In this document: positions 7,985-60,903 of the stretch, in pieces
Position numbering within the stretch: the first letter of the stretch is position 1
How the letters are laid out: each line of letters begins with the position of its first letter
Assembly (NCBI GenBank): GCA_965660445.1
Contig: CBFIAK010000001.1
Span: 608,001 to 672,000, forward strand
Direction: 5' to 3'
Length of the DNA: 64,000 bases
Origin: Patescibacteria group bacterium
GTDB lineage: Bacteria; Patescibacteriota; Gracilibacteria; UBA4473
Notes under the pieces: generated by a model
Seen by the model: the letters and a program-made list of their open reading frames with translations, nothing else
Told to the model about the DNA's origin: nothing
The model's database searches: none
Made by a program: the position numbers and the translations under genes

Positions 7985-8003
7985 TAAAGAGGGTTAAAAA
8001 TTT

Positions 8004-43942: not shown

Positions 43943-43993
43943 GCAGTTATTGTAGCTTTTTTTCTATTTTTTCAAACAAAGCAACCTATGAAA

Positions 43994-44575
43994 TTAGTAC
44001 TTCCGTGGAAAATGTTCTTTGCCTAATTGCCACAAATACTTATCGATTTGTTTCAAATCAAACTCTTCTAAATTATAAAATTCTCTAAATTTCAGGAGAA
44101 TGTTTTTAAAATCAGGATAAGTCTTTAGGTCGGCACTTTTAAAACTACAAAACTTATCTTTCTTTTTGAAATACATCAGGATTTTCTCCAAATATGAATC
44201 GTAAATCGGATATACAATTGGTTTGTGATGGCTACAGTATTTTGTTGCAAAGGAATAGAAGTTCTTGAAAATCCCTTCTTTTACTTCTACATAGGCAATT
44301 TCGTTTACAATTTCCAGATTCTCTTTATTTAGCTTTTGATCAATATTTAAAGCCACAATGTGCTTTGCGACTGCAAATGGAGAAAAAATATTAGTGCTAT
44401 AAAAATCATTCAAAGCACATACTTTTATGAGGACATCATCAAGTTCTGTATTCGTTGGATACGTCTTTGAAAAAAGTTTCTTCAAACTACTTTCTTGTGA
44501 CACATAACTATCGAGAGAATCCCATTTCTTGAGATAATGTTGAACTTCTTGGGGAGCAGGAAAGGGAATGTTCAT
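43994..44575 (-). CDS. Conserved hypothetical protein, possible HhH-glycosylase-like fold
   Basis: LNDFYST, YSFATKYCSHH, YPIYDS, IDKYLW motifs; in operon with R-M genes. Confidence 0.55.
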   Translation of the reverse strand: MNIPFPAPQEVQHYLKKWDSLDSYVSQESSLKKLFSKTYPTNTELDDVLIKVCALNDFYSTNIFSPFAVAKHIVALNIDQKLNKENLEIVNEIAYVEVKEGIFKNFYSFATKYCSHHKPIVYPIYDSYLEKILMYFKKKDKFCSFKSADLKTYPDFKNILLKFREFYNLEEFDLKQIDKYLWQLGKEHFPRKY

Positions 44576-44577
44576 TT

Positions 44578-46077: not shown

Positions 46078-46080
46078 AAA

Positions 46081-47724: not shown

Positions 47725-47728
47725 GAAT

Positions 47729-50700
47729 TTATGTATTATCAGTTAATTCCGAAAGGAATGTATTATTACTTGTTGCTAATTTAAAATCGTCATTACTGAT
47801 GTTATAAATTTTATTAATTTTTTTTATTAATTTTTCCATCAATACATCTATTTTTCGTTCAAATACTGATTTTTCAGTGTCAAAAGATTTATTAAATTTA
47901 TCCTTTGTTTTAATTAGTTCTTTTACTAGTTTTATTATTTCTTCATAGTCGGCAATTTCCTCAGCATTTTGAAAATCAATCAACCGAATAGGAAGATTCT
48001 CAATAAATTGTTTTCCATGAGAATAGTAAGCACCTCTGAATTCACTGGCACCCGCTTTTACCATGTTTTCAAAGACTGGATGAGAGAGGATTCCAAGTAA
48101 GTAAAAAATAGAGTAATCACTATTTTGTAATAAAGAATAATAGGGTCCATTTCCCCCGCCAGTAAACTGTAGATCGTTATTATCAAAAATATAAGCAGGC
48201 TCAGTTGATAAAACTGACCATATAAGCTTTGGTGCGTTGTGAAATCGCGTCAAACTTTGAGAACGACCGAATTGATACCATTTAGGATCACGACCATTTA
48301 GGCTTCTAACTTCTAGAACAGCTTTATGCTTATTTAAATACTCCCAACACAAAGGATATTCAGTTTGAAGAAATTTCTCAGAAAATAACTCAGCCCGATC
48401 TGTTATCTTATATGGGAAAATCATTTGAGCATTTCCGCTAATGGTATCAAATAAATCAAAAGATAGATCATATATGCAGGGGCGACATATATCCTTCTCT
48501 ATTTCATAACGAATACCATCTTTAGAAAAAATAAATTTCTCATTCGTTTCATTTTCGGGAGTGAATATATAAATAGGATCTTTACTGGTTTGAAGTCCCA
48601 CCGCAATTTCTGCCACCTCTTTTAATTTTTTTATATTTTGAGAATAAATATTATTAAATATGGCTTCTACTTCTGGTTGCAAGAAGATCCATGGATCGCT
48701 GTTGTATTTTTCGGTCTTATAGGTTCCCCATGTGTTGTCTGATAAAATTTCCGGAGTAATTTTATCTATTTTTTTGAATTGGAAATTATTGGTATGTTCT
48801 TTTTGAATAACAATAATTGCAGTGTAAGTGGATCTTTCAGGGAAAATCTGTGTTATTCCAAAATGAACAAGCTTTGACAGCTGACTATTTTCTGTAATAT
48901 ATTTTCTTAAGCTTTTCCCTCCCTTGTTTATAAAGAATTTATGTGGAACGATATAACCAAGAAATCCCTTGGCATTTAATAGTAAGATTGCTCTTTGTAT
49001 GAATACGTAATACTTATCAATACTTTCTTTTGTTGCAACACTAAATCCGGAGTCTTTGGATTGATAGTATTTAATTTCTTCAGGAGTGTATTTAACAAGA
49101 TTCTGAATTCGAACATATGGAGGGTTTCCGACGATAGCGTCAAATCCTTTGGTACTCTTTAAAAATGGAAATTCTTTCTCCCAATCAAATGGTTTTGTTC
49201 TTAACAACAAAGTATCGCTTAAAGACGACCCCATGAAATCATAAAATTTTGAATCAACTAGCGAATTACCACATTTTATATTTTCTTTTAGATCTGGGAG
49301 TACTCTTTCTGAGAATTGATCGATAAAATTATCGACAGTTGCTGCTGTTTCATCCTCCAATAATTTCAAGAGAAGACTAAATTTAGTTACTTCTGCTGCA
49401 TAAGGGTTTATATCTACTCCATGAATGATGTTTTCAAGAATTTTCCTTTTGGAATTTACGGTAAGAGCAAAACTGTTGTCGCTTTTTTTAATTATTAATT
49501 TTTGATCATCAACGCCTTCTTCTATGAATTTCTCAATAATGGTTCGAAGCAAATAATCATAGGATGAAATTAAAAAAGTTCCTGATCCACAACATATGTC
49601 AGAAATTTTTAGTTTTAATATTTCATCAGAAGTTTTTTCACTAATTATTGGGTTCAAAGTTTCTTGTACAATTTTTTCCACTATAATTTTTGGAGTTGGA
49701 ACAACTCCATTAGATGCGGAAACTTCAGGCTCTTCCAATATTGAAAGCTGCCTTTTTTCATCAAGAACGATTTTGCTTCCTAGGAATTTTTCATAAATTT
49801 GACTAAGTATGCTGGTATCAACAACAGAAAAGTCGTAAGGACTTAGGGGATAGTAAAGCTCACTGAATACTTCAATTAAAACCTCAGAATCAATTTCTAT
49901 CTTGAGTGATAATCTATCTTCAATAAAATCAAATAACCCCGAATTATATTTTTTATCTGACTGAATAAATATCTCTTTTAATGCTTTATAATCTTTGATA
50001 TTTTTTAGTGTTTCAAATTTCTCGATTGATCGATCTTCACAAATTCTTAAAAATATAATTTTATTAAGAAGTCGTTGAATTAAGAAATTTATACTTTCAT
50101 TATCAATTTCTTTATTCAGCTTAACTGCTGACTCTGCCAAGGTTTTTCTCCATTTTTCAATTTGTTCTAGGAAATGATTATCAAACGTTTCTCCCATCCT
50201 TTCATAGACGGAGTAAAGATCATCTATTCGCCCAGAAGCAGCTGAATGATAAGAAATTATGTCCTGTATTTCTTCAAACGCCTTTTCATATTCGGTATAT
50301 TTGAATTTTTTAATTCTTGCTACGTGTTCTCCATCTGAAGAATTAGGTTTAAATCTGCAATCATAAATAACCAGGTCTTCAAAATTTGTAAGAATTGATA
50401 TTCCAAGATTTGCATTCCATCCATATCTTCTTGTTTGAAAAGCAGATTTTGCAGATTTAAGGATATTAACACTGGGTTTTTTTGCTTCAACAAAAAGTTT
50501 TCTGGTTCCGTTAACTCGGAGTGTGTAGTCGGGATTTTTTTTGGAAATAGAATCTTCGACCTCAATATATTCCTCTTGAATTACATCTCTCAAAAATTGA
50601 GTTTGTCTTTTTTTATTATCAACATCCCATCCAAGCGATTTTAAAAGGGGGTCAATAAAATCATTTCGCAGTTGAGTTTCATTATATGAAGCCTTTAGAT

Positions 50701-50752
50701 AATTAGACCTGTGTTGTTTGTATTTGTTAACCAGTGTTGAAATATCTGTCAT
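47729..50752 (-). CDS. Type IIG restriction-modification enzyme (Eco57I/BpmI-like)
   Basis: NETQLR, PDY...VEAKK nuclease; DICCGSG and GNPPY methylase motifs; C-terminal target-recognition region. Confidence 0.9.
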   Translation of the reverse strand: MTDISTLVNKYKQHRSNYLKASYNETQLRNDFIDPLLKSLGWDVDNKKRQTQFLRDVIQEEYIEVEDSISKKNPDYTLRVNGTRKLFVEAKKPSVNILKSAKSAFQTRRYGWNANLGISILTNFEDLVIYDCRFKPNSSDGEHVARIKKFKYTEYEKAFEEIQDIISYHSAASGRIDDLYSVYERMGETFDNHFLEQIEKWRKTLAESAVKLNKEIDNESINFLIQRLLNKIIFLRICEDRSIEKFETLKNIKDYKALKEIFIQSDKKYNSGLFDFIEDRLSLKIEIDSEVLIEVFSELYYPLSPYDFSVVDTSILSQIYEKFLGSKIVLDEKRQLSILEEPEVSASNGVVPTPKIIVEKIVQETLNPIISEKTSDEILKLKISDICCGSGTFLISSYDYLLRTIIEKFIEEGVDDQKLIIKKSDNSFALTVNSKRKILENIIHGVDINPYAAEVTKFSLLLKLLEDETAATVDNFIDQFSERVLPDLKENIKCGNSLVDSKFYDFMGSSLSDTLLLRTKPFDWEKEFPFLKSTKGFDAIVGNPPYVRIQNLVKYTPEEIKYYQSKDSGFSVATKESIDKYYVFIQRAILLLNAKGFLGYIVPHKFFINKGGKSLRKYITENSQLSKLVHFGITQIFPERSTYTAIIVIQKEHTNNFQFKKIDKITPEILSDNTWGTYKTEKYNSDPWIFLQPEVEAIFNNIYSQNIKKLKEVAEIAVGLQTSKDPIYIFTPENETNEKFIFSKDGIRYEIEKDICRPCIYDLSFDLFDTISGNAQMIFPYKITDRAELFSEKFLQTEYPLCWEYLNKHKAVLEVRSLNGRDPKWYQFGRSQSLTRFHNAPKLIWSVLSTEPAYIFDNNDLQFTGGGNGPYYSLLQNSDYSIFYLLGILSHPVFENMVKAGASEFRGAYYSHGKQFIENLPIRLIDFQNAEEIADYEEIIKLVKELIKTKDKFNKSFDTEKSVFERKIDVLMEKLIKKINKIYNISNDDFKLATSNNTFLSELTDNT

Positions 50753-50757
50753 GAAAT

Positions 50758-50979
50758 TTAAGATATTAGTTGATCAAGAGTAATTTCTAATCCTTCAGCA
50801 ATTTTAGTTGCCGTTGGAAGCGTTGGACTTTTAATTACATCGCTTTCAATCTTAGCGAGTGTGGTATATGGAATATCAGCTTTTCGTGCCAAAGCCTCTT
50901 GAGTAAGCTTCCTTTTCGCACGCCAAGCTTTTATTTTTTGCCCGATACTTCGCTCTTCCTTTTGTTTTTTTTCTTCCAT
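50758..50979 (-). CDS. XRE-family HTH regulator (possible R-M controller)
   Basis: LTQEALARKADIPYTTLAKIE; first gene of the R-M operon. Confidence 0.88.
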   Translation of the reverse strand: MEEKKQKEERSIGQKIKAWRAKRKLTQEALARKADIPYTTLAKIESDVIKSPTLPTATKIAEGLEITLDQLIS

Positions 50980-51082: not shown

Positions 51083-52366
51083 CTAATCGGTTTTTAGCTT
51101 CACGGTTCCTCGCTCAAGAAGTAATTGTCCTTTGACACATCGAAGTACTTGTTCTTTCTCCTTTGGTGTTCCGTTTTTGAGAAGAAAGCATATGTATTCA
51201 TGAACGCTCATCAATTGTGCTTTGTCTCCATACCGAACCATTTCCATCTGATTAATTTTTTCGACTTCCTTTTGTATTTCTTTGCGAATATAGAATGAAT
51301 TTTCGTCTGTTTGAGTAACGAGGCTAGATACTTCTTCAATGAGCTTCTGTTCAGGGATGTATTTCTCTTTACAGATCCCGTGTCCGTAATACCGATTGCA
51401 CTTGTAGTAGCTGTATTCTTTCCCATGACGGTTGATATGGGTTTCTCCACACACGCCTGATCCACAGACCCCGCATTTAAAAATTTTGTTGAAGTAAAAC
51501 TGTTTCCGTCCCCATTTTCCTTTTGGACTTACAATCAATTTCGTTTGAGTGAGGTCGTACATTTTCTTGGTAATCAAGGGTTTGTAATCTCCGTCATACC
51601 AGTTTCCAGAACCTCGGGGATATTCGAATTTTCCGTAGTAGAAAGTATCGCCTAAGATTTTGTAAATCATGCTGAGTGATACGATTTTGTCATTTCTCGA
51701 TTTAAGTCCTTCTCTTTGCATGTGATCCCAAACCTGCCGTCCACTCATTCCCTCGTGAGCCACGAGCATGAAAATCTGTTTTATGTACGGAGCACGTTCT
51801 GGATCTACTTCTATCGTGCTGGGATCAGACATTCGCTCGCCTCGCTTAAGAATGTATCCAATCGGGGGAGATCCAGGGCGAACGCCTGTTTCACATTTCG
51901 CTCGCATACCTCTTTTTACATTCTTGGATCGGTTGTCGTTTTCTAGCTTCGCCTGAGAACAGAGAATCATGAGAAGAAATTTCTCGTCAGGGGTGTTGGT
52001 AAATTTCTGACCGCTCGTCTGGATCTTGACCAACTTTTCTTGATCCATGAGATCGACAAGTGTCCCTAGATCTCCTGCATTTCTGCTCAACCTGTCAGGA
52101 GCCCATGTCAGCACACAATTGAAGCGTTGCTCGCTGATTCCCAAGATCACTTTGTTGTATCCGATTCGTTGCCCCGAGGACTTAGCCGATTTGCTCTCTC
52201 GAATCGTTTCCACGATCTCAATCCCTTCTTTTTCTGCGATTTGTGTCATCTCTTTGATTTGAGAATCAATACTCATGGCTTGCCGTTCATCCGCTTCGCT
52301 CGACTTACGGGCGTATAAGCAGTAGCGAAGCGGTTGTTCCGATATCGATATTGGGTTTTCCATCAC
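51083..52366 (-). CDS. Large serine recombinase 1
   Basis: YARKSS, SIDSQ, DRLSRN, recombinase domain, CGVCG...YYKC zinc ribbon. Confidence 0.92.
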   Translation of the reverse strand: MMENPISISEQPLRYCLYARKSSEADERQAMSIDSQIKEMTQIAEKEGIEIVETIRESKSAKSSGQRIGYNKVILGISEQRFNCVLTWAPDRLSRNAGDLGTLVDLMDQEKLVKIQTSGQKFTNTPDEKFLLMILCSQAKLENDNRSKNVKRGMRAKCETGVRPGSPPIGYILKRGERMSDPSTIEVDPERAPYIKQIFMLVAHEGMSGRQVWDHMQREGLKSRNDKIVSLSMIYKILGDTFYYGKFEYPRGSGNWYDGDYKPLITKKMYDLTQTKLIVSPKGKWGRKQFYFNKIFKCGVCGSGVCGETHINRHGKEYSYYKCNRYYGHGICKEKYIPEQKLIEEVSSLVTQTDENSFYIRKEIQKEVEKINQMEMVRYGDKAQLMSVHEYICFLLKNGTPKEKEQVLRCVKGQLLLERGTVKLKTD

Positions 52367-52410
52367 GACAAGTGATGTCGCAGGAAATGTTTAAGTCTAG
52401 GCGGAATCGC

Positions 52411-53967
52411 TTAAAAGGGTCCAAAATTTGGAAATCGTCTGTCATAACTGGAAAGAAATTGTTCCATCGACATACTGCTGACAGAGGGTCCATCATCTAA
52501 TGGGATAAATTCAAAATGAACTTCTCGTTCTGCCATTATTTCGTTGATTGCAATCGTTAACGCATCGACCAAGTCATCGTGTTTTTCCACCCCAAATCCC
52601 ATGACTTGTTCAATGATTCTTTCGCATCCTTTTTTGGGAAAGAGGACTCGCCCTGTTTTTATGTAATGGTGTGCAGTACAAAGTCTTGATCTTTTGTCGC
52701 CCACAATACTCACTGGTTTTGTATTATAGCCATCTCGATCCATTTCTTGCTCAAACGCTTTTTGATACCCCACATCTTCCGTAAAAATCTTTACAGATTT
52801 TGGATGATCGTGAATCGTTGAACAAAGAGCTTTCAGCCCTTCTTTTGAGCCAGAAAAATCTGGTCGCCCATGAAAGAAATTCGGAAGAATAAAAACGTGT
52901 TTCTTTTTATTCATTTTATAAACCTTCATTGGAATAAACGCGGTATAATCTGCCGAATTTTTTTGAGAAATAGACAAGTCAGTCCCAATAGCTGGAAACC
53001 GAAAATAAACACTATTTTCTGAGTTTTTATCATGGTTTTCCTGAGGAAGGTCTTCGTAGTAGTGAATATCTTCAGGAAGGACGATTTGTCCTTCGTCAGG
53101 AATAATTCTAAGCATAAATTCTCGTTGCCATGCAATATGATTCCCAACTCGTTTTTCTTCGGCTTTGATGGCTTTTGCGTTTGGATATTTTCCGTGCCAC
53201 AAGGCTTTATTGTTTCTCGCAACGGGGTATGCTTTATATCTTCCTGTCATTTCGTTTTTTCTGATTTTTTCTTTCATCCGCATGATGACGGAATCCTCGT
53301 GGAGCAAATTTCCAATCATAATCAATCGTGTATTTTGATCGCCTGCAGGAATCACTTCACTTGTCAGCCAATCATAGGTTTTGTTTCGCCCTTCTTTGGT
53401 TTTTACAGAAGAAAGATCTTCAATATCGTCACAAATGATGAGATCGGGGCGGTATTGGTTGTGTCGTATTCCACGCACACTTTGTTCCATAGAAACCGCC
53501 ATGATTCGGGCATCGTGTTTGGGAATCAAAAGTGAAGACGTGCTCCACTCATCGTCTTCTTTGAAGGGTCCCAAATCTTTCCGTAAAAGGGCATTTGATT
53601 CGAGTTCTCGCCTAAGATTTTTGAGATGTTGTCGAGCTTGGTGTTGGGTTTGCCCTACAAGCAAGACAAATTTTTTCTGTGGTTTCCCAAGAATTGACCA
53701 CAGCGGATAGGATAAATTTACAATCGTTGATTTTCCTGATCCCCGAAACGCAATAATGACGAGATTCTTTATTTTTTCATTTTCGGTGAACTGAAACATT
53801 TCTCGCTGAAAGTCCGCTGTTTTGTAGGTGATGTAATGATGAAAGTATGTATGAAAGAACCAATAATGACTTTGACTGGTTATTTCTTGCCGAACGCGGT
53901 AATCGGTAAGGATTTTTTGAATTGTATCTTTATCAAGTTCTGGAATGTTGTAGCTTGAAGTTTTCAT
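52411..53967 (-). CDS. Phage terminase large subunit-like protein
   Basis: Walker A FRGSGKST, Walker B IICDDIED, nuclease motifs GTDLS..ADYTA and HDDLVDA. Confidence 0.85.
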   Translation of the reverse strand: MKTSSYNIPELDKDTIQKILTDYRVRQEITSQSHYWFFHTYFHHYITYKTADFQREMFQFTENEKIKNLVIIAFRGSGKSTIVNLSYPLWSILGKPQKKFVLLVGQTQHQARQHLKNLRRELESNALLRKDLGPFKEDDEWSTSSLLIPKHDARIMAVSMEQSVRGIRHNQYRPDLIICDDIEDLSSVKTKEGRNKTYDWLTSEVIPAGDQNTRLIMIGNLLHEDSVIMRMKEKIRKNEMTGRYKAYPVARNNKALWHGKYPNAKAIKAEEKRVGNHIAWQREFMLRIIPDEGQIVLPEDIHYYEDLPQENHDKNSENSVYFRFPAIGTDLSISQKNSADYTAFIPMKVYKMNKKKHVFILPNFFHGRPDFSGSKEGLKALCSTIHDHPKSVKIFTEDVGYQKAFEQEMDRDGYNTKPVSIVGDKRSRLCTAHHYIKTGRVLFPKKGCERIIEQVMGFGVEKHDDLVDALTIAINEIMAEREVHFEFIPLDDGPSVSSMSMEQFLSSYDRRFPNFGPF

Positions 53968-53979
53968 TTTTTAAATGGG

Positions 53980-54378
53980 TTAAGATTTTTTAGAGGGTAA
54001 AAGTGATCCCAAAGACAACGCTTTGGTGACCATTGCTTGTTGTTCTTCGGTCAGTTCTCGGTCTTCAATACGAGTGGTGACTTCGAATTTCTGCGTGTAG
54101 GATTTGTGGCGGTGTTTGAGCCAAAAAATGATGGCAGTCAGATTCTTGTCTTTGATAGCAGACAAAAGTTGAGATTCTGCCATATCATTCATGAGCTTTA
54201 CGCCTTCGTGAATGGCTTCATCGGCTTCTTTGGCAAACTCTTTGTCGTCTTTTCTCCAGCGATAGTAGGTCGCTCGCCCAAGACCTGTTTTTTCGCACGC
54301 CAGTTGAACAATGGGCGTCTTTTTGAGTTGTTCACATAACGCCTGCTTTTGCTGTTGCTGTTTCTCATTGATATTCAT
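53980..54378 (-). CDS. phBC6A51-type HTH protein, small-terminase-like
   Basis: ACEKTGLGRATYYRWRKDD...AESQL...AIIFWLK; directly upstream of the large terminase. Confidence 0.7.
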   Translation of the reverse strand: MNINEKQQQQKQALCEQLKKTPIVQLACEKTGLGRATYYRWRKDDKEFAKEADEAIHEGVKLMNDMAESQLLSAIKDKNLTAIIFWLKHRHKSYTQKFEVTTRIEDRELTEEQQAMVTKALSLGSLLPSKKS

Positions 54379-55145
54379 TTTTCTGTGGGGTTAAGAGGTA
54401 CAGCTTTTTGCCCAGTGATCTTTTCCCACCGATCAATAATGACTTGGCAGTATTTCGGTTCGATTTCGACCATGTAGCATCGACGTTTCGTTTGTTCACA
54501 GGCAATGAGTGTTGACCCACTCCCACCAAAACAGTCGTAGACAATATCTTCTCGTCGGGTGCTATTGAGAATAAGTCTGCGTAAAACAGATATATTCTTC
54601 ATGGTCGGATGCAGATCGTTCTTTTTTGTCTTGGGACTGATGAGAACGGACTTGTCCTGCGATTTCATGAATTCATGTCGTCCACGCCAACCGTAGGCGA
54701 TGAGTTCGTGTTGGGGCAGATAATCCAGTCGTCCAATGACCGCCCCTGTTTTTACCCAGACCAGTATTTGAGAAAGCTTGAATCCTTCCGCTAAAAACGC
54801 TTCCCTCATGGCGAACATCATTTTGTCCGAGTTGAATACCGCAAAAGCGTTCTTGTCGGTCAGTCGATTTTTAATGGGTTTCAGCCAGTTTTGGGTGAAT
54901 GTTTTGAATTCCTCGTCCGACTGAATGTGATCGTTCTGGATTTCCTCGTGTTGGATTTCCGATTTCACGAAATCTTTCTTTCCTGACACAAGCGACACCC
55001 CATATGGTACGTCAGTGCAGATGAATTTGATTTTCTCTGTGCCAAGTAGTTTTTCTACCTGGTCTGCGTTGACCGCATCGCCACAGATAAGTCGATGTTC
55101 TCCCAATTGGAAAGCATCCCCGATACTAATTGATTGTTTTGACAT
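54375..55145 (-). CDS. N4/N6 DNA methyltransferase (beta class)
   Basis: HRLICGD, TDVPY, HPTMK, DCFGGSGSTL. Confidence 0.85.
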   Translation of the reverse strand: MSKQSISIGDAFQLGEHRLICGDAVNADQVEKLLGTEKIKFICTDVPYGVSLVSGKKDFVKSEIQHEEIQNDHIQSDEEFKTFTQNWLKPIKNRLTDKNAFAVFNSDKMMFAMREAFLAEGFKLSQILVWVKTGAVIGRLDYLPQHELIAYGWRGRHEFMKSQDKSVLISPKTKKNDLHPTMKNISVLRRLILNSTRREDIVYDCFGGSGSTLIACEQTKRRCYMVEIEPKYCQVIIDRWEKITGQKAVPLNPTEK

Positions 55146-56418
55146 CGTTTTGTGGGTTAAGAGCTAAATATCGAGCGATTATGACATCGCAAAAAGCAGG
55201 GTCTTTTTCGACCAAGAATGATTTTCGTCCGAGTTGGTCACAAGCGACCATCGTACTGCCCGATCCTCCAAACAAATCGAGCACGGTGTCTCCGGGTTTC
55301 GTACATCGCTTGAGGGGGCGTTCGTGAAGGGTTGGGCTTTTTTCTGTCGGGTGTTTGTACTCTGAGGTGGGCAGTCGTTTGACCAACCAAATGTCGAGCA
55401 TATCCTCAATGTCATCAAGCGTGCGGTTTCCAGTCCCAATTTCTGGGTTCAGGATTTCTGTAAAATTGGAAGACTTGTCGCTTAAAAACGGTTTTCCCAC
55501 CGTTCCATACACGCAGGGTTCATAGCATTTGTTGAAGGCAATTTGAGGCGTAACATTTTGGTTATTTTTAACCCAAAGGCACACCCGCTGATTTTTTATT
55601 CCATTCTTCTGATACAAATCCTGCAAGAGTCCGATGTAGTTCTGATCGCAGAAATAGAAAATATGGGCATTGGATTTGCAATGCACCAGTCCGTTCTGAA
55701 TCGTTTTCTCTAAAAACGCCCGATATTCCGTATCGGTTTTCTTGTCATCGACTTTCGCACAATCGTACTTTTTCTTTTTCCCCAGTCCTTTCTGATAATC
55801 ATAGGACAGATTGAAGGGCGGATCTGAATAGATCGCATCAATCTTTGTTTCGCCCAAAAGCTTATTGATCACTTCGGGGTCTTGGGAGTCCCCACAAACG
55901 AGCCGATGTTTCCCGAGTTGAAACATTTCTCCTGTTTTTGTTTGAGGATTTTTTTGCGCTTTTTCTAATTCTTCTTTGGTATTGAACTCATCATCCTCGA
56001 TTCCTAATGCTTCATCCCAGATAACTGATAAATCCGAATCATCGAATCCGACATCAAGTAGCAAATCGAGGTCAAAATCTTTGAGTTTTTGGAAATCAAA
56101 TTCTCCGGTGTTTCGATTTAAGCGAAGATTTAACTCTTTTTCTTTCTCGATATCTGGAATATCTAAAAAGATCACGGGGACTTCCTCGTATCCCAAATCT
56201 TTGGCGACTTTGAGACGGAAGTGTCCGCCAATGGTTATGTTCTTCCTCTTGGGCGAACTATTTACGAGGATTGGATCAACCAGCCCGAAGCGTTTGACGC
56301 TCTCGGTGAGTTGATCAATTGCTCCTTTCTCCCATTTTCTAGGATTGTACTGAGCGACTTTCAGTTCTTTGATCGGAACTGAGACGATTTTTAACGAAGC
56401 CGACTTTTTTGTACTCAT
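55126..56418 (-). CDS. ParB-N domain fused to DNA methyltransferase
   Basis: YNPR...FGLVDP...GGHFR (ParB-like); SDPPF, HPTEK, LFGGSGST. Confidence 0.88.
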   Translation of the reverse strand: MSTKKSASLKIVSVPIKELKVAQYNPRKWEKGAIDQLTESVKRFGLVDPILVNSSPKRKNITIGGHFRLKVAKDLGYEEVPVIFLDIPDIEKEKELNLRLNRNTGEFDFQKLKDFDLDLLLDVGFDDSDLSVIWDEALGIEDDEFNTKEELEKAQKNPQTKTGEMFQLGKHRLVCGDSQDPEVINKLLGETKIDAIYSDPPFNLSYDYQKGLGKKKKYDCAKVDDKKTDTEYRAFLEKTIQNGLVHCKSNAHIFYFCDQNYIGLLQDLYQKNGIKNQRVCLWVKNNQNVTPQIAFNKCYEPCVYGTVGKPFLSDKSSNFTEILNPEIGTGNRTLDDIEDMLDIWLVKRLPTSEYKHPTEKSPTLHERPLKRCTKPGDTVLDLFGGSGSTMVACDQLGRKSFLVEKDPAFCDVIIARYLALNPQNDVKTIN

Positions 56419-56546
56419 GACAAAAATAATTAAGAAATATATCTCAATTATTGGGGGGTGTCGGACGTAAATGGGGGATTTTTTACCTACAAAAAAACCA
56501 AGTCGCTTGATTACTTAGCTTTGGGCTTCACGAACTTTTGGGTTTC

Positions 56547-57407
56547 TTACCCTGCGATGTCTATTTTGATTTTGCATTTGCCATTTCTAATATTTTCAAA
56601 CGGATCTTCCGTGATTCCAAAACATCTTTGAAGGTCTTCTCGAAGCATGCTCAATTCCTGTTTGAAGTTAGCGTGCCCATCCTTTAGAAATTTTGAAAGA
56701 GTTCCACGATTTGAAGCGAATTTTTCCAACAACGTCCAACTAACCCTCGGACTGTTTGTGGTTTGACTCATAAATCCCAAATCGTAGAAAGTGGATTTTT
56801 GTTTGTTTTTTCCATCACTAATTTCGACCTCGTGAGAATTTAAAAATTTCAACGCTATTTCTTCCCAACGGGATACTTTTGGTTGCAGAAAATCTCTCGA
56901 AATAATGGTATTCCCTTGAATATGTACGTTTACGGTAATGTGTTGGTGAACAACGGGTTGTTCTCTCCTTGATGGGGTCGGAAGAATTGTTCGCTCCTCA
57001 TAAGAACTTATGCGGTGTTCAAAATAAGTTGATGACATTTCAGGAAAGGTCATCTTTGGAAGACTGTGAAATGTCTTCATCGACTGGTTTATCAATTCCA
57101 TATTTGGCATTGATGCTTGGATCTGTTTTGAAAGATCCGTAATTCCACTCATGTCTGGCAGAGTCGCTCTCATCCTTTCAATATCTTTTAAAATTGGCTC
57201 TATGTGCGACATCGAGTTCTTTATTTGCTCTGAAAGAGCGGTAAGTCCAGTCATGTCTGGCAAATTCAGTTTCATACCCTCCATCGCTTTCAGCATGGGT
57301 TCCATATTTATCTGCGTTGCTAAACTGGCAGATCTCCCAATAGCTCCGAACTTTTTTAATTGGTCAGGAGTAAATGTTCGACGTCGACGGGTTACTGTGG
57401 CGATCAT
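56547..57407 (-). CDS. Hypothetical protein with Met-rich internal repeat
   Basis: LPDMTGLTALSEQIKNSM and LPDMSGITDLSKQIQASM; ATGA overlap with the upstream gene. Confidence 0.6.
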   Translation of the reverse strand: MIATVTRRRRTFTPDQLKKFGAIGRSASLATQINMEPMLKAMEGMKLNLPDMTGLTALSEQIKNSMSHIEPILKDIERMRATLPDMSGITDLSKQIQASMPNMELINQSMKTFHSLPKMTFPEMSSTYFEHRISSYEERTILPTPSRREQPVVHQHITVNVHIQGNTIISRDFLQPKVSRWEEIALKFLNSHEVEISDGKNKQKSTFYDLGFMSQTTNSPRVSWTLLEKFASNRGTLSKFLKDGHANFKQELSMLREDLQRCFGITEDPFENIRNGKCKIKIDIAG

Positions 57408-57835
57408 TTTGTGGTTTTTTCTGATTTATGAATTTCGATCCATTTGGTATTTTCTCTTGAAATTAGAGCCTCGACCCTTTCAACAAATAAAGCTTCTTTA
57501 TCCGAGGCATCTGCATATTCGTATAATTTTGCATCGTAGAAATGTTTTTCTTTCTTAAGGCTCTCAGCAATAGTTCTATAAGAGAGCCAATTTTCTTGAT
57601 ATTTAAAAGTCTTTAGCGAAGTTGCCATAATGGCGACAAAGACAGAAGCAATCGTTGGAACCAAGTTTGAATAAGGTTCGAGCAGTATCAATATGGGAGT
57701 TAATGCCGAACAAATAATCAATCCCCATTGAAATCCCACATACCATTTTTTATTACGTGAAGATTTTTCACTATACCACTTCACTTGCGATTTATACCTT
57801 CCATCAACGTATTCATCGAATTCAGTTTTATTCAT
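57404..57835 (-). CDS. DUF4231/SLATT-like two-TM effector
   Basis: RYKSQVKWY, two TMs, ENWLSYRTIAESLKKE, FVERVEALISRE. Confidence 0.85.
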   Translation of the reverse strand: MNKTEFDEYVDGRYKSQVKWYSEKSSRNKKWYVGFQWGLIICSALTPILILLEPYSNLVPTIASVFVAIMATSLKTFKYQENWLSYRTIAESLKKEKHFYDAKLYEYADASDKEALFVERVEALISRENTKWIEIHKSEKTTK

Positions 57836-58296
57836 AGTCCCAATTCGTTATAAACGGAATCTTTCCAGTGCCAGTCATCATCATCTTTTTTGGAAAAATT
57901 ATCAAGGCTGTATTTTATGATTGAAGCCTTAAACGGGACAAACATAGCCCCCTTGTTTTTTAATATTGGAGGACACATTTCATCAACTCGTCTGCTTCCG
58001 TTTAAATTTACACATATGAGCCTGCAATTTTTTTCTATCGCAATATCAGCTTCCCATCTTACATATTTATGTTTTGATTTTGTATCTTCCCCAATGAGCT
58101 GAATAAATGTTCCGGAGTTTGTGATTTTTTCACGAAGAATACGTTTTATGTAAGATTCATCTTGAGATTGAATACTTCTATCTAGTTGCATATCGATGAA
58201 ATCAAAGTCCATTTTTCCATTTGCCTTCCATCCTTTCATAAAATCGTAGTATTGTTTGTCTGTACTACTGAAACCGACAAAAACTCTATTTGCCAT
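57832..58296 (-). CDS. TIR-like domain protein (DUF1863/ThsB-like)
   Basis: RVFVGF, YIKRILREKI, LIGEDT, YVRWE (catalytic Glu position). Confidence 0.85.
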   Translation of the reverse strand: MANRVFVGFSSTDKQYYDFMKGWKANGKMDFDFIDMQLDRSIQSQDESYIKRILREKITNSGTFIQLIGEDTKSKHKYVRWEADIAIEKNCRLICVNLNGSRRVDEMCPPILKNKGAMFVPFKASIIKYSLDNFSKKDDDDWHWKDSVYNELGL

Positions 58297-58486
58297 TTAT
58301 CAAGTCATTAAGAGAGGCGACATTATTTTTTTCAAGATATGTCCCCAAGTGCATATCTGACCGAACTCCGAAATCTTTTTCATATTGTTTCTCGATCGTT
58401 CCCATGTGAGTATCGTCTCGTTTATCACGAAGTTGTCCATCTTGGTTTCTTGAGCGGTTTCCTCGCATTCCTGGTGCATCTGCCAT
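58286..58486 (-). CDS. Small hypothetical protein (66 aa)
   Basis: Overlaps the TIR start; preceded by the TAACCC motif; RSRNQDGQLRDKRDDT...FGVRSDM. Confidence 0.7.
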   Translation of the reverse strand: MADAPGMRGNRSRNQDGQLRDKRDDTHMGTIEKQYEKDFGVRSDMHLGTYLEKNNVASLNDLINGK

Positions 58487-58626
58487 TTTCTTGTGGGTTA
58501 AAAGCTACTGACACTACTAAATATAGCGTTTTTTTAGAAAAAGTAAAATAAAAACTACATAAAACTAGAATTTCTTGATTTTTTTAATTCTACAACGTAT
58601 AATTTTAATGAAAAAAACAAATCATC

Positions 58627-59270
58627 ATGCACGAAACACAACGAAAAATATTAGCACTTCTTGAGTCAAAGGGACAGCTTTTCCTTAAATATGCCCAAAT
58701 AGCTCGGGATATTAAAGAAGACAGTCTTCAAAATGTTAAATATCATCTTTTGCAACTCGAGAAACGTGGCTATATCGTTATTGATAAAGTCAAAAAAGTA
58801 GTAAAAAAAGCGTCAGATGTAGCGGAAAAATCTTTAGGATTTTCTAATATTCCTTTTTATGGCGATGCCAATTGCGGATCTCCCTTATCTTACGCCGAAG
58901 ACATGCAACACGGGGTTCTTAAGGTTTCATCTTCGCTAGTACCAAGTTCCGAAAATATGATTGCGCGGTACGAGCTGTTGGAGATTCAATGAATATATCG
59001 CGTATTAAGGGATCTTCAATTGAAGATGGAGATTATGTTATTGTTGATACTCAAAAAAAAGCACCAGAAGCAAAAGATTATATACTTTCTGTTATTGATG
59101 ATGGGGCGAATATTAAACGAATTTATTTCGATGAAACAAATCATTATGTCGTCCTTAGATCAGAATCCAATGATCCAAATTTTCGAGATATAATCATACA
59201 TGAAGACGACAAGTATTCGGTTGTGGGAACGGTAGAATGTGTAATAAAGAAGCCTCAAATCGAAGATTGA
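58627..59270 (+). pseudogene. LexA/S24-family repressor split by a 2-bp insertion
   Basis: N-terminal wHTH and YGDANCG; removing 2 nt in GCGCGG (58963-58968) restores IAVRAVGDSMN...EDGD...IKR. Confidence 0.8.
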
Positions 59271-60517
59271 TTCTTTGATTCATAAATCACTTGCTTGTCT
59301 TTTATCAAAAGCCTCCCATTCAATGCTTGTAGAGATTCAGATTTCTTTTGAAGACTTCCGTATACCAATTCATCCTGTATGAATTGATACGGCTTAAGGG
59401 GTGGTTTTATGAAAAAATTACACCTTCTCATGTCATCTTTTTGGCGTTGATTGAGTTCGCTAATGTCTAAATCCGTTATTTGTTCCGCAATTTTTTCTAT
59501 TTGTGCCAGAAGATTTTTTCCTCGAATGCTTAATTGTTTGCAGTTGCTATTGTATTTATTGCACGAGTAGTAAAGGTAGAGTCGATTGTACCTATTCCTG
59601 TAAATCTCACCAGAAATACCAGATCCGCACTCGCCACATTTAAAAATTCTATTGAATTTGAAAGGAATCTCTCCCCATTTTCTTCGGGGTTCTCGGGGAC
59701 CTCGTTTTGCGATGTTTGTTTGGACTTTATCATAAAGTTCCTTGGTAATGAGCGGTTCATGAATACCTTTGTACCAATTCCCACTTTTTTTGGGGTATTC
59801 AAATTCTCCGTAGTAAAAAGTATCTGCCAACATCTTTTGAAGCCTACTTTTGGCTAACTTCTTTCCATGCTTCGAAAATTTCCCCAATCTGTCCATATCT
59901 TTCCAAATGTGGTAGATACTTTTGTTCTCTTCTCCCACTAACCGAAATATCTCTTTCACAATGGGAGCTTTTTCTTCATCAATTACAGCTCTATTTGGCT
60001 CGTGTATATCTTCTCCAGGTACAAGTTTGTATCCTAATGGCGTTGCATAGGGTCTTCGTCCTTGTTCACAAGCTGCCCTCATTCCACGTTGCACGTTTTT
60101 ACCACGATTTTCATTCTCAAGTTTTGCCTGACTTCCCAAAAGCATGAGCAAAAACTTCTCATTTGGATTATTTCCAAGAAATGTTCGGTCATGCGTTCGA
60201 ACAACCTGTAATTTCTCTTGATCCATTAAATCGACCAACATCCCTAAATCTCCTGCATTTCTGCTGAGTCGGTCAACCGCCCATGTTAAAATCGCTTCAT
60301 ATTCTCCATCCATCAGTCCTGCCATGAGCTGAGTGAATCCCGGGCGAGAAAAGGAAGTTTTTGCAGATTTACACTCTTCTATGATTTTTACGACATCAAG
60401 ATCTTCTGCCTCTTGAATTTTTCTCATCTCTCGGAACTGAGATTCAATCGACATAGCTTGTTTTTCATCTTGTTCAGAGGACTTTCTGGCATAAATACAA
60501 TAGCGAATATTAGACAT
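59255..60517 (-). CDS. Large serine recombinase 2
   Basis: YARKSS, SIESQ, DRLSRNAGDLG, CGECG...YYSC; paralog of 51083..52366. Confidence 0.92.
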   Translation of the reverse strand: MSNIRYCIYARKSSEQDEKQAMSIESQFREMRKIQEAEDLDVVKIIEECKSAKTSFSRPGFTQLMAGLMDGEYEAILTWAVDRLSRNAGDLGMLVDLMDQEKLQVVRTHDRTFLGNNPNEKFLLMLLGSQAKLENENRGKNVQRGMRAACEQGRRPYATPLGYKLVPGEDIHEPNRAVIDEEKAPIVKEIFRLVGEENKSIYHIWKDMDRLGKFSKHGKKLAKSRLQKMLADTFYYGEFEYPKKSGNWYKGIHEPLITKELYDKVQTNIAKRGPREPRRKWGEIPFKFNRIFKCGECGSGISGEIYRNRYNRLYLYYSCNKYNSNCKQLSIRGKNLLAQIEKIAEQITDLDISELNQRQKDDMRRCNFFIKPPLKPYQFIQDELVYGSLQKKSESLQALNGRLLIKDKQVIYESKNQSSI

Positions 60518-60785
60518 ATGAAAGGGGTTACAATGGAAACATTATAATCCCTTGTGTAAATACATCTTGAATAAAAAAATTGTTCAAAGGAAATATTGAG
60601 ACACCCCTTTTTTATAGTGTCTCATTTGTCTCATTTTCAAGGTCAGGTATAATAAAATATGCAAGGCATAAGACACCAGACCGACAGCCACTGCCAAAAC
60701 AAAAACCTTGGCATACCAACAAAGATTTGGTGTGGCGGGCTTTTTGCTATTTGCTCGGGAGGAATTGAACCTCAGTTTGTTATTT

Positions 60786-60881: not shown

Positions 60882-60903
60882 AAATATCCTGTTTGGATTA
60901 TAA

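What the first reader, a model, noticed from the sequence alone, without database searches (positions are those of the whole stretch)
51083..60517. Capsid-less terminase element bracketed by two serine recombinases
Seen: recombinase 2, divergent LexA-like repressor, TIR/SLATT operon, ParB-MTase, MTase, small-terminase-like HTH, intact large terminase (ATPase and nuclease motifs), then recombinase 1 only 44 bp later. No portal, capsid, tail, primase, relaxase or T4SS gene is present. Known: ParB-MTase, TerS and TerL form a phage packaging module normally followed by portal. Inference: a compact integrative element that keeps only DNA marking and cutting functions, for example a satellite redirecting helper capsids, a packaging-interference defence or a transduction device. 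It differs from PICIs (typically tyrosine integrase plus primase) and cf-PICIs (capsid genes).
Basis: partly seen in the sequence, partly recalled or inferred. Interest (0 to 1): 0.82.

Follow-up and report, generated by a model that had tools for sequence, protein, structure and literature searches.

The report
Terminase-carrying capsid-less mobile element family
A small mobile DNA element in an ultra-small (CPR) bacterium keeps a phage's complete DNA-packaging enzyme, two DNA-marking enzymes and an integration enzyme but no virus shell genes, and the same five-gene core recurs in many related bacteria, so it looks like a new kind of phage hitch-hiker.

Summary
The real unit is narrower than it proposed. 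It is a five-gene core: ParB-methyltransferase, methyltransferase, TerS, TerL and a large serine recombinase (Rec1), at 51083-56418. I found this core in 12 of 12 related loci from CPR genomes, in the same order in 11. None of the 12 loci has a recognisable portal, capsid, tail, primase or relaxase gene within 10 kb. In two loci, housekeeping genes bound the element to 10 kb or less. All core genes are intact and under strong purifying selection. The TerL catalytic residues are invariant in 13 of 13 sequences. In a real streptococcal phage the same MTase-MTase-TerS-TerL block is followed by portal, protease and capsid genes. Here a recombinase follows instead.

Rec2, the LexA-like gene (which is frameshifted) and the TIR/SLATT genes occur in none of the 12 loci and differ in base composition. 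The "bracket" therefore looks like a second, adjacent module. Flanks often hold restriction-modification and other defence genes.

The best reading is a satellite-like element that packages itself into a helper phage's capsids. This mechanism is inferred, not shown. Attachment sites, excision and packaging could not be tested. Seven full-text searches found no description of this architecture.

The parts
51083..52366 (-). Rec1, a large serine recombinase and the recombinase of the conserved core
   Evidence: Pfam Resolvase, Recombinase and Zn_ribbon_recom. A Rec1-type homologue (44-87% identity) lies next to the terminase genes in 12 of 12 loci, and each is closer to Rec1 than to Rec2. pN/pS is 0.081/0.711 for L002-L005.
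52367..52410 (-). 44-nt TerL-Rec1 spacer with a conserved motif (CCTAGAC, about 15 nt, GCG-CATCA)
   Evidence: The motif is visible in the window and in L002-L007. It stays directly upstream of the recombinase in L010, and partly in L012, where other genes separate TerL from it (read by eye). Promoter, operator or another site was not resolved.
52411..53967 (-). TerL, the large terminase subunit (ATPase plus RNase H-like nuclease)
   Evidence: phrog_38 at 1e-82. Profile hit to the T7 terminase 4bij over the ATPase domain. Walker A K79/S80/T81, Walker B D180/D181/E183 and acidic residues D330/E397/D465/D468 are invariant in 13 of 13 sequences (motif names assigned by me). The last 40 or so residues are hypervariable.
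53980..54378 (-). TerS-like small terminase subunit (N-terminal HTH)
   Evidence: PF13022 at 1e-9. Six TerS PHROGs, best 2e-8. tblastn homologue directly upstream of TerL in 12 of 12 loci, 52-86% identity.
54375..55145 (-). Stand-alone N6/N4 DNA methyltransferase
   Evidence: PF01555 at 2.6e-28. phrog_498 at 4e-74. A separate gene in 8 of 12 loci and a partial copy at the contig edge in L010. Absent as a separate gene in L008, L011 and L012.
55126..56418 (-). ParB N-terminal domain fused to an N6/N4 DNA methyltransferase
   Evidence: ParB_N at 2.7e-11 and N6_N4_Mtase at 4.5e-28. Present in 11 of 12 loci; the L010 contig ends before it. In Streptococcus phage Javan346 the best-matching gene is followed by a second MTase, TerS, TerL, portal, protease and capsid genes.
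56547..57407 (-). Unknown 286-aa protein in the variable slot upstream of ParB-MTase; possibly a DNA-binding regulator
   Evidence: No Pfam, PHROG or PADLOC hit. A 39%-identical homologue sits in the same position in L002. Eleven clusters in the large protein set, counting the window's own. Three relatives share the N-terminal half and have a weak Trans_reg_C C-terminus, best E 0.011. The fold was unusable at pLDDT 40.7.
57404..58486 (-). orf66 - TIR (ThsB-like) - SLATT operon; defence-type cargo with overlapping stop and start codons
   Evidence: ThsB_TIR at 3e-16, SLATT_1 at 1.5e-15 and DUF4231 at 1.2e-19. PADLOC ThsB at 2e-43. No homologue in any of the 12 loci. GC3 is 0.30.
58627..59270 (+). 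LexA/CI-like repressor gene (wHTH plus S24 peptidase), frameshifted near 58950-58960
   Evidence: Weak wHTH hits and Peptidase_S24 at 1.8e-8 in two overlapping ORFs. The catalytic GDSM motif lies in the second frame upstream of its ATG and aligns with UmuD, including the KR lysine. A promoter-like site at 58575-58603 is not above chance.
59255..60517 (-). Rec2, a second large serine recombinase that is not part of the conserved core
   Evidence: Resolvase, Recombinase and Zn_ribbon_recom. 46% identical to Rec1. Long separate branch in the recombinase tree. No second recombinase in any of the 12 loci.
42989..50979 (-). Defence genes downstream of Rec1: HTH controller, type IIG R-M enzyme, type II MTase, Cas4-like/RNase_H_2 nuclease, a 193-aa unknown, and an Mrr-like PDC-S02 gene. 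Cargo or a neighbouring island.
   Evidence: Pfam. PADLOC: REase_MTase_IIG at E = 0, MTase_II at 4e-209, PDC-S02 at 6e-77, control protein at 3e-6. GC3 is host-like at 0.22-0.32. The RNase_H_2 protein has a 55%-identical homologue upstream of the core in L011.

Best explanation
The window holds one member of a widespread, conserved family of compact integrative elements in CPR (Patescibacteria) genomes.

The invariant core is ParB-methyltransferase, usually a second methyltransferase, TerS, TerL and a Rec1-type large serine recombinase. In the window this is 51083-56418, probably with the upstream 286-aa gene to 57407. The core carries a complete terminase holoenzyme but no virion, replication or conjugation genes.

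The most likely way it works is as a phage-satellite-type hitch-hiker:

1. The serine recombinase integrates and excises the element.
2. TerS recognises the element's own packaging site.
3. TerL cuts the DNA and pumps it into procapsids made by an unidentified helper phage.
4. The methyltransferases pre-mark the DNA so that it survives restriction in the next cell.
5. Variable flanks carry defence genes that ride along.

In concept it mirrors an integrative mobilizable element, which brings its own relaxase but borrows a conjugation pore.

Shown here: gene content, conserved synteny, absence of recognisable structural genes, tight size bounds, purifying selection, intact catalytic motifs, and phage ancestry of the module.

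Inferred: excision, helper dependence, packaging and the role of methylation.

Rec2, the frameshifted LexA-like gene and TIR/SLATT are best read as a second adjacent or nested module specific to this genome.

On the confidence figure: I put about 0.85 on the core being a conserved, selected, capsid-less mobile module. The 0.45 given is for the satellite mechanism.
For: - Conserved synteny. The TerL-based scan of one genome per species returned 12 loci, all encoding full-length relatives at 40-81% identity. ParB-MTase, TerS, TerL and the recombinase occur together in 12 of 12, in the same order in 11. In L009 the recombinase is upstream and inverted.
- No structural genes. 0 of 104 flanking ORFs hit a portal, capsid, protease, tail, primase, relaxase or T4SS Pfam family. 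0 of the 53 of those 104 flank ORFs that I also ran through PHROGs hit a head, connector or tail family.
- Size bounds. In L005, a complete 1.33-Mb chromosome, the core lies between AcrB (ends 6701) and lipid-synthesis genes (from 16621). In L008 it lies between an AcrB/HlyD operon and DnaX. In L011 RuvC starts 700 nt after the recombinase.
- Selection. pN/pS is 0.047/0.742 (TerL, L002-L005), 0.110/0.757 (TerL, window-L001), 0.087/0.694 (TerS), 0.037/0.478 (MTase), 0.074/0.609 (ParB-MTase) and 0.081/0.711 (recombinase).
- Catalytic residues of TerL are invariant in 13 of 13 sequences.
- Phage ancestry. In phage Javan346 the same MTase-MTase-TerS-TerL block is followed by portal, protease and capsid genes.
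- Family size. At least 3261 TerL clusters at E <= 1e-20, many on contigs of 0.17-1.4 Mb. Seven contig lengths are shared between the top 120 TerL rows and the top 120 Rec1 rows (compared by eye).
- Module swapping. Proteins listed with the same 67,200-nt longest-contig length are Rec1 at 93%, the 286-aa protein at 90% and TerL at only 53% identity. The TerL and recombinase trees agree broadly, but L001 and L003 are exchanged. The TerL C-terminal tail is hypervariable.
- Distinct composition. The core has GC3 of 0.35-0.49 against a host value of 0.22-0.28. The pattern is similar in L001, L002, L005 and L007.
- Defence context. R-M genes lie within 10 kb in 6 of 12 loci and in the window.
Against: - No helper phage is known. 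The closest TerL among 50,697 phage records is only 25% identical, and the closest in plasmids is 26%. So no phage with a matching portal has been identified.
- A foreign TerL must dock on the helper's portal. That is why cf-PICIs carry their own portal (passages). A TerL without a portal is therefore an awkward design for a satellite.
- No replication gene was found, yet terminases normally act on concatemers.
- Attachment sites, excised circles and packaged forms were not found. No flanking repeats were informative. None of the three loci that span a whole contig has a terminal overlap.
- Several flank ORFs have no family at all, so a very divergent structural gene cannot be excluded in some loci. 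The size bounds in L005 and L008 make a full virion module impossible there.
- The 12 loci were found with peptide patterns taken from this TerL, so more distant relatives that sit next to a portal would have been missed.
Confidence: 0.45

Rival explanations
1. In-situ (lateral-transduction-type) packaging platform. The element need not excise or replicate. TerS/TerL start headful packaging from the integrated copy and run through the recombinase into the adjacent defence genes, moving them at high frequency in borrowed capsids.
For: - No replication gene sits in the core.
- In the window and in L006, L007 and L010, the defence genes lie on the recombinase side of TerS-TerL; in L009 they directly follow TerL.
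- The weak best phage hits for TerL include a Mu-like phage, BalMu-1 at 25%. From my own knowledge, Mu-like phages package from integrated copies.
- A listing and abstract state that phages and PICIs move defence systems by lateral transduction (PMC12829572; I did not read the paper).
Against: - In L011 and L012 the R-M genes are upstream of ParB-MTase, and in L011 housekeeping RuvC follows the recombinase.
- The packaging direction and the pac site are unknown.
- A helper capsid is still needed.
- A conserved recombinase would be unnecessary if the element never excised.
Confidence: 0.15
2. The terminase has been recruited for defence. Either it competes with an infecting phage's own packaging, or it acts as a methylation-guarded, ATP-driven nuclease in which the two methyltransferases mark self DNA. 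The recombinase only moves the cassette.
For: - Two methyltransferases are tightly linked to an ATPase-nuclease in a capsid-less cassette.
- Defence genes are frequent neighbours: R-M types I, IIG, III and ISP, a PD-T4-6 kinase, PD-Lambda-3 and ThsB.
- Satellites are reported to interfere with helper packaging (abstract listings).
Against: - The same MTase-MTase-TerS-TerL block exists in an ordinary phage, where it serves packaging, so the linkage needs no new function.
- TerL and TerS hit no PADLOC model.
- L008, L011 and L012 have only one methyltransferase.
- The hypervariable TerL C-terminus and the swapping of TerL between otherwise near-identical elements fit matching to partners better than a fixed nuclease role.
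Confidence: 0.12
3. Packaging module of a real temperate phage or a gene-transfer-agent-like system whose head and tail genes lie elsewhere in the genome, outside the 10-kb flanks and the 64-kb window.
For: - No helper is identified.
- The family is very large and chromosomal.
- Only 10 kb on each side of each locus could be inspected.
Against: - Nothing in the rest of the 64-kb window is a head gene. The only tail-type PHROG hits are short repeat matches in secreted giant surface proteins with signal peptides.
- The core behaves as a mobile unit with its own composition and its own recombinase.
- It sits in unrelated neighbourhoods in all 12 loci.
Confidence: 0.1
4. One reading: one composite element delimited by Rec2 on one side and Rec1 on the other, with both recombinases acting on it.
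For: - The two recombinases are paralogues at 46% identity on the same strand.
- orf66, TIR, SLATT and the 286-aa gene overlap one another like an operon and lead into the core.
- The strong terminator of the neighbouring membrane-protein gene at 60857-60882 places an island edge just beyond Rec2.
Against: - 0 of 12 related loci have a second recombinase or any of the Rec2-side genes.
- Composition differs between the two parts.
- Defence genes continue beyond Rec1 to about 43 kb, so Rec1 is not clearly an outer edge.
Confidence: 0.12
5. Decayed prophage remnant with no function of its own.
For: The module is of phage origin. The LexA-like gene beside it is frameshifted.
Against: - All five core genes are intact in every locus where the contig allows.
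- pN is far below pS in all five genes.
- Catalytic residues are invariant across TerL proteins that are only 40-81% identical to the window's.
- The same truncation point, TerL followed by a recombinase, recurs in 12 of 12 loci from several CPR lineages.
Confidence: 0.03

Closest known systems
PICIs / SaPIs (phage-inducible chromosomal islands)
   Same: Small chromosomal islands of phage origin that integrate site-specifically. They carry a small terminase subunit to redirect packaging into helper capsids, and often carry defence genes (passages of PMC10085698).
   Different: PICIs have a regulator (AlpA/MerR/Stl), a primase-replicase and only TerS. As a rule they do not encode other phage packaging enzymes. 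This core has TerS plus a full TerL, two methyltransferases and a large serine recombinase, and no recognisable primase-replicase.
cf-PICIs (capsid-forming PICIs)
   Same: These satellites encode their own large terminase as well as TerS.
   Different: cf-PICIs are defined by their own capsid, portal and head-tail adaptor/connector genes (abstract). None is detectable here or in any of the 12 loci.
PLEs of Vibrio cholerae and serine-recombinase VEIMEs of marine bacteria
   Same: Satellites that integrate with a large serine recombinase and use helper capsids (PLE abstracts; VEIME passages of PMC9618062). Some VEIMEs carry TerS and R-M genes.
   Different: In the passages I read, TerL is named among the genes presumably supplied by the helper, and replication genes are common. 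Here TerL belongs to the element and no replication gene is seen.
Packaging module of temperate siphophages, for example Streptococcus phage Javan346
   Same: The same gene order: ParB-type adenine MTase, second MTase, TerS, TerL. ParB-MTase is 33% identical.
   Different: In the phage, portal, Clp-like protease and major capsid genes follow TerL, and primase/helicase genes precede the block. In the CPR elements a serine recombinase follows and host or defence genes flank.
Integrative mobilizable elements (IMEs)
   Same: The logic is the same (from my own knowledge, not a call). These are small integrated elements, often with a serine recombinase, that bring their own DNA-processing enzyme and borrow the transfer machine of a helper.
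   Different: IMEs carry a relaxase and oriT and use a conjugative pore. This element carries a terminase and would use a phage capsid. No relaxase or T4SS family was found.

Membership tests
Large terminase subunit (TerL) | N-terminal ASCE ATPase with Walker A and Walker B motifs | tested here: met
   The GS(G/A)KST and DLIICDD-E motifs are invariant in 13 of 13 sequences. They align with the Walker motifs of T7 gp19, entry 4bij. phrog_38 scores 1e-82.
Large terminase subunit (TerL) | C-terminal RNase H-like nuclease with conserved acidic residues | tested here: met
   Terminase_6C match over residues 337-475, weak at 8e-4. D330, E397, D465 and D468 are invariant. Calling these residues catalytic is my inference from their position.
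Large terminase subunit (TerL) | Works with a portal and procapsid encoded in the same genome | tested here: not met
   No portal or capsid family in the window or in the 12 loci.
Large serine recombinase (integrase type) | Resolvase catalytic domain plus Recombinase domain plus zinc-ribbon domain | tested here: met
   All three Pfam domains are present in Rec1 and in Rec2. All three are present in 119 of the 120 listed relatives; the exception, P0170 (278 aa), lacks the zinc ribbon.
Large serine recombinase (integrase type) | Defined attP/attB or attL/attR sites | tested here: inconclusive
   No informative flanking repeats. No empty site or circular form was available. The conserved spacer upstream of the recombinase has an unknown role.
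PICI | Integrase at one end | tested here: met
   A recombinase is present, and serine recombinases are accepted as functional analogues of tyrosine integrases (passage). Its position at the element's end is shown only for L011.
PICI | Primase-replicase module | tested here: not met
   No primase or replicase family in the core or in the slot genes.
PICI | TerS only, with no other phage packaging enzyme | tested here: not met
   A full TerL is present in 12 of 12 loci and in the window.
PICI | Induction and packaging by a helper phage | not testable with these tools
   This needs culture work or virus-particle read data.
cf-PICI | Own capsid, portal and head-tail adaptor/connector genes | tested here: not met
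   0 of 104 flank ORFs in Pfam and 0 of 53 in PHROGs. None in the window's element.
LexA/CI-type S24 repressor | N-terminal DNA-binding domain and S24 peptidase with a Ser-Lys dyad in one polypeptide | tested here: not met
   Both parts and both catalytic residues are encoded, but in two reading frames. An assembly error cannot be excluded.
Thoeris-like TIR defence | ThsB-type TIR protein together with a ThsA effector | tested here: not met
   ThsB model at 2e-43, but no ThsA. The partner is a SLATT membrane protein, which has no PADLOC hit.

The most novel reading that the evidence does not exclude
The ParB-MTase/MTase/TerS/TerL/serine-recombinase cassette is a previously undescribed and very abundant class of phage satellite. 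It would be the first reported for CPR bacteria. It owns the whole packaging enzyme but nothing else of a virion, and it swaps its terminase to change helper. If so, it is a main vehicle that moves restriction and other defence genes between these reduced genomes.
Probability: 0.4. Interest if true: 0.82.

Novelty: new variant of a known kind. Interest (0 to 1): 0.68.

Why it matters
Little is known about phages and gene exchange in CPR bacteria. [quoted passage not shown]

A conserved, selected, capsid-less element with its own complete terminase would add a new design to the known satellites, which carry either TerS alone or a whole capsid set. It would give a concrete, testable route for horizontal transfer of defence genes in these organisms. 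It would also point to unseen helper phages, whose portals could be searched for using the TerL clade.

The recombinases are also a large, diverse set of serine integrases with compact cargo boundaries, which may interest genome engineers.

Tried and rejected
1. Attachment sites. The repeat search over 43-62 kb gave only the recombinase paralogy and chance-level short repeats. No locus shares flanks with the window, so no empty site could be found.
2. Circular forms. None of the three loci that span a whole contig (L003, L004, L010) has a terminal overlap.
3. A 22-nt tRNA-like T-arm/acceptor fragment at 60752-60773. It is unique in the window and unlike the 3' end of tRNA-Trp. Rfam finds nothing there. 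I dropped it as an att clue.
4. A 37-nt hairpin shared with L007. It is found in only 1 of 12 loci, so its meaning is unknown.
5. The 286-aa protein. The Atlas search gave only unnamed clusters. The AlphaFold model had mean pLDDT 40.7, so I ran no fold search. Pfam at E <= 1 gave nothing credible for it.
6. dN/dS ratios. Synonymous sites are saturated in most pairs (pS of 0.7 or more), so I report pN and pS rather than ratios.
7. Promoter and terminator scan. Counts are at chance level, 27 against 25 expected and 11 against 8.6 expected. I used only the strong terminator at 60857-60882.
8. A helper prophage in the window. The tail-fibre PHROG hits at 1-7984 are short repeat matches in secreted giant proteins.
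9. Literature. Seven full-text searches found no paper describing this gene order. I read passages only of PMC9618062, 10.1101/2025.02.15.638363, PMC10085698 and PMC12366544. I opened no supplements, so the module tables of the VEIME paper, which might list motor ATPases, were not seen.
10. Not run: complex prediction, the second fold job, and the search of protein representatives.

Full report
**What is at the locus**

Between 51083 and 60517 the ORF list and Pfam give the genes below. All are on the minus strand unless stated.

| Gene | Coordinates | Main evidence |
|---|---|---|
| Rec2, large serine recombinase | 59255-60517 | three recombinase domains |
| LexA-like gene (plus strand) | 58627-59270 | weak wHTH hits and S24 peptidase |
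| 66-aa ORF | 58286-58486 | no hit |
| ThsB-type TIR | 57832-58296 | PADLOC 2e-43 |
| SLATT | 57404-57835 | SLATT_1, DUF4231 |
| unknown 286-aa protein | 56547-57407 | no hit |
| ParB_N fused to N6/N4 methyltransferase | 55126-56418 | |
| second methyltransferase | 54375-55145 | |
| TerS-like HTH protein | 53980-54378 |; six TerS PHROGs |
| TerL | 52411-53967 | see below |
| Rec1, large serine recombinase | 51083-52366 | starts 44 nt after TerL |

TerL is weak in Pfam but matches PHROG phrog_38 'terminase large subunit' at 1e-82. A profile of the family also finds the ATPase domain of the phage T7 large terminase in the PDB. Rec1 and Rec2 are 46% identical. No ORF in the interval hits a portal, capsid, tail, primase, relaxase or T4SS family.

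One detail was missed. The LexA-like gene is frameshifted. Its wHTH and cleavage-site region is in one frame. The S24 domain, with the catalytic GDSM serine and the KR lysine that align with UmuD, is in another frame that is open from 58923. This is either a pseudogene or an assembly error.

**Related loci**

One scan of one genome per bacterial species with TerL returned 12 loci. All are MAGs. Eleven are labelled as CPR lineages (Peribacteria, Gracilibacteria/Altimarinota, Moranii-, Shapiro- and Woesebacteria, Patescibacteria). One is a bin labelled Gammaproteobacteria with GC near 0.6.

tblastn with 22 window proteins and blastp on called ORFs show the following:

- ParB-MTase, TerS, TerL and a Rec1-type recombinase occur together in all 12 loci.
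- The order is the same in 11. In L009 the recombinase lies upstream and is inverted.
- The second methyltransferase is a separate gene in 8 loci.
- The TerL-recombinase gap is 33-92 nt in 7 loci.
- In L001, L008, L010 and L012, one to three small genes are inserted there.
- Every recombinase is closer to Rec1 than to Rec2.
- No locus has a second recombinase, a LexA-like gene, TIR or SLATT.
- Nucleotide similarity between the window and the loci runs only from about 56400 (56675 in L002) to about 51169.

The conserved unit is therefore the five-gene core ending with Rec1, not the interval between the two recombinases.

**Are virion genes consistently absent?**

I called 158 ORFs in the 12 loci and ran the 104 that lie outside the core through Pfam. 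None hits a portal, capsid, prohead protease, tail, primase, relaxase or T4SS family. Of those 104, the 53 that had no or uninformative Pfam hits were also run through PHROGs. None hits a head, connector or tail family.

Three loci give hard size limits:

- In L005, a complete 1.33-Mb chromosome, the core and four extra ORFs lie between AcrB and lipid-synthesis genes, at most 9.9 kb.
- In L008 the element lies between an AcrB/HlyD operon and DnaX.
- In L011, RuvC-RuvA-RuvB begin 700 nt after the recombinase.

Elsewhere in the 64-kb window there is no head gene. The only tail-type PHROG hits are short repeat matches in secreted giant surface proteins at 1-7984.

**Is the module alive?**

- All core genes are full length wherever the contig allows.
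- Non-synonymous differences are few while synonymous sites are near saturation. For TerL, pN/pS is 0.047/0.742 (L002-L005) and 0.110/0.757 (window-L001). TerS, both methyltransferases and the recombinase give similar values.
- In the 13-sequence TerL alignment, the Walker A lysine and serine/threonine, the Walker B DD-E and four acidic residues of the nuclease half are invariant. The last 40 or so residues vary freely in length and sequence.

This rules out a decaying prophage.

**Ancestry**

The best phage matches to ParB-MTase are streptococcal prophages at 33% identity. In phage Javan346 the gene order is ParB-type MTase, second MTase, two small ORFs, TerS, TerL, a small ORF, portal, Clp-like protease and major capsid. 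Primase/helicase genes lie upstream. The CPR core is therefore the start of a siphophage late operon, cut after TerL and joined to a serine recombinase.

The closest TerL in 50,697 phage records is only 25% identical. The closest in plasmids is 26%.

**Size and behaviour of the family**

- TerL has at least 3261 clusters at E <= 1e-20 among the 8000 candidates scored. Many are on contigs of 0.17-1.4 Mb, and the window's own contig is 828 kb.
- The Rec1 family saturates the 8000-candidate limit.
- Seven contig lengths are shared by the two top-120 lists: 67200, 9850, 14658, 4641, 14308, 27639 and 16029. I compared these by eye. This is a heuristic for co-residence on the same contig.
- Proteins listed with the 67,200-nt contig length have Rec1 at 93% and the 286-aa protein at 90% identity, but TerL at only 53%.
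- The TerL and recombinase trees agree on the deep split and on the L002/L005 pair, but they exchange L001 and L003.

The parts are therefore inherited together on the large scale and swapped between close elements.

**Composition and limits in the window**

| Genes | GC3 |
|---|---|
| Rec1, TerS, both MTases | 0.46-0.49 |
| TerL | 0.35 |
| 286-aa gene | 0.39 |
| host genes | 0.22-0.28 |
| R-M genes downstream of Rec1 | 0.22-0.23 |
| TIR/SLATT | 0.30 |
| Rec2 | 0.35 |

The same contrast between core and downstream cargo is seen in L001, L002 and L005. A strong terminator at 60857-60882 ends the neighbouring membrane-protein gene, so an island edge lies between 60518 and 60856.

Beyond Rec1 lie an HTH controller, a type IIG R-M enzyme, a type II methyltransferase, a Cas4-like/RNase_H_2 nuclease, a 193-aa unknown and an Mrr-like PDC-S02 gene, reaching to about 43 kb. 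The nuclease is 55% identical to a gene upstream of the core in L011. I could not decide whether these are cargo or a neighbouring island.

R-M genes lie within 10 kb of the core in 6 of 12 loci. Other flank genes include a PD-T4-6-type kinase, PD-Lambda-3, a Mokosh-like helicase, a DGR reverse transcriptase with bAvd, and a secreted nuclease.

**The variable slot upstream of ParB-MTase**

At least three unrelated gene families occupy this slot:

- the 286-aa type in the window and L002;
- a 249-aa type in L005 and L003;
- a 353-390-aa type in L004 and L007.

Each comes with its own short sequence blocks in the intergenic region (by eye). Three relatives of the 286-aa protein share its N-terminal half and carry a weak OmpR-type winged-helix C-terminus. 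A cassette of regulator plus operator is a reasonable guess, but the fold of the 286-aa protein failed at pLDDT 40.7. It stays unknown.

**How it most likely works**

Shown: a mobile, selected, capsid-less, replication-less cassette with a complete terminase, DNA methyltransferases and a serine integrase, often next to defence genes.

Inferred:

1. The recombinase integrates and excises the element.
2. TerS/TerL package the element's DNA into procapsids of a helper phage.
3. The methyltransferases protect the DNA on arrival in the next cell.
4. The hypervariable TerL tail and TerL swapping reflect matching to different helper portals. The portal-binding role of TerL C-termini is recalled, not tested.

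Against this reading: no helper is known, no replication function is present, and a TerL without its own portal is unusual for a satellite.

Rivals I could not exclude are in-situ (lateral) packaging of neighbouring DNA, a defence role for the terminase, and head genes encoded elsewhere in the genome.

**Comparison with known systems**

- PICIs carry TerS only, plus a primase-replicase.
- cf-PICIs carry TerL but also capsid, portal and connectors (passages).
- PLEs and some marine VEIMEs use serine recombinases. In the passages I read, TerL is listed among the genes presumably supplied by the helper (abstracts).

The element fails a defining feature of each family. It resembles them in logic, and it resembles integrative mobilizable elements in strategy. 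Seven full-text searches found no description of this gene order.

**What stayed unchecked**

- No supplements were opened.
- Attachment sites, excision and packaging could not be tested.

Noticed in passing
window 58923-59270 (+), break near 58950-58960: The LexA/CI-like repressor gene is split by a frameshift in an A-rich stretch. The catalytic GDSM motif lies upstream of the second ORF's ATG, in that ORF's frame. This is either a pseudogene or an assembly error.
   Followed up: yes
window 52367-52410; same position in L002-L007, L010, L012: The short spacer before the Rec1-type recombinase carries a conserved motif (CCTAGAC, about 15 nt, GCG-CATCAAT). The motif travels with the recombinase when other genes are inserted after TerL. 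With 17-nt spacing and about 7 nt to the ATG, it could be a promoter giving a leaderless transcript, or a protein-binding site.
   Followed up: partly
window 60598-60635; L007 2354-2389: A 37-nt block, 92% identical between the window and L007, contains the hairpin GAGACAC-N12-GTGTCTC plus a third GAGACA. It is unique in the window and absent from the other 11 loci. In the window it lies about 80 nt upstream of the Rec2 start.
   Followed up: partly
window 60752-60773 (-): A 22-nt stretch looks like a tRNA T-arm plus the 3' acceptor strand. It is not called by ARAGORN or Rfam, is not repeated in the window, and is unlike tRNA-Trp at 37810-37883.
   Followed up: yes
window 44578-46077 (-); L011 5855-7351; L007 4760-6397: A PD-(D/E)XK/Cas4-like plus RNase_H_2 (DUF2779-related) nuclease recurs near the core. 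The L011 copy is 55% identical to the window's, which is more than TerL is between the same two loci (46%). It may be a frequent accessory gene of these elements.
   Followed up: partly
L001 14678-17894; L002 12879-14377; L005 12863-16224; L009 11402-14434: A conserved low-GC two-gene cassette (about 290-344 aa plus about 780 aa) follows the recombinase in three loci. In tblastx the larger protein is similar to a 1010-aa RelA/SpoT-domain protein (PDC-S33 hit) in L009. It is probably a defence cassette of unknown type.
   Followed up: partly
intergenic regions upstream of ParB-MTase: window 56419-56546 and the same region in L001-L005, L007: Short sequence blocks differ with the family of the upstream slot gene. 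GGTAAAAAATCCCCC occurs in the window and L002. GGGAC/GTCCC repeats occur in L001, L003 and L005. GAACTTG repeats occur in L004 and L007. This suggests exchangeable regulator-plus-operator cassettes.
   Followed up: no
window 57121-57305 (-), inside the 286-aa gene: An 83-nt segment is repeated 102 nt away at 71% identity. It encodes two copies of an L-P-D-M-(T/S)-G-(L/I)-T motif in the protein's helical N-terminal half.
   Followed up: no
window 1-10237 (-): Six large secreted repeat proteins (up to 1308 aa, with signal peptides, acidic and Thr/Gly/Asp-rich) have short matches to tail-fibre PHROGs. GC here is 0.39-0.46. They look like CPR surface proteins rather than a prophage.
   Followed up: partly
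window 38031-41092 (-): Two Fic/DOC-family genes of 305 aa each flank a 243-aa unknown, just after tRNA-Trp. Together with the Mrr-like PDC-S02 gene at 42989-43942, the whole 38-60.8 kb stretch reads like a defence island.
   Followed up: no
L004 687-2206: A diversity-generating-retroelement-type reverse transcriptase and a bAvd accessory gene lie about 2 kb upstream of the core in L004.
   Followed up: no
L008 (whole locus): One member of the family sits in a high-GC genome (GC 0.55-0.66), labelled Gammaproteobacteria. Its core genes are adjusted to that composition (GC3 0.66-0.79). Either the family reaches beyond low-GC CPR hosts or the bin label is wrong.
   Followed up: no
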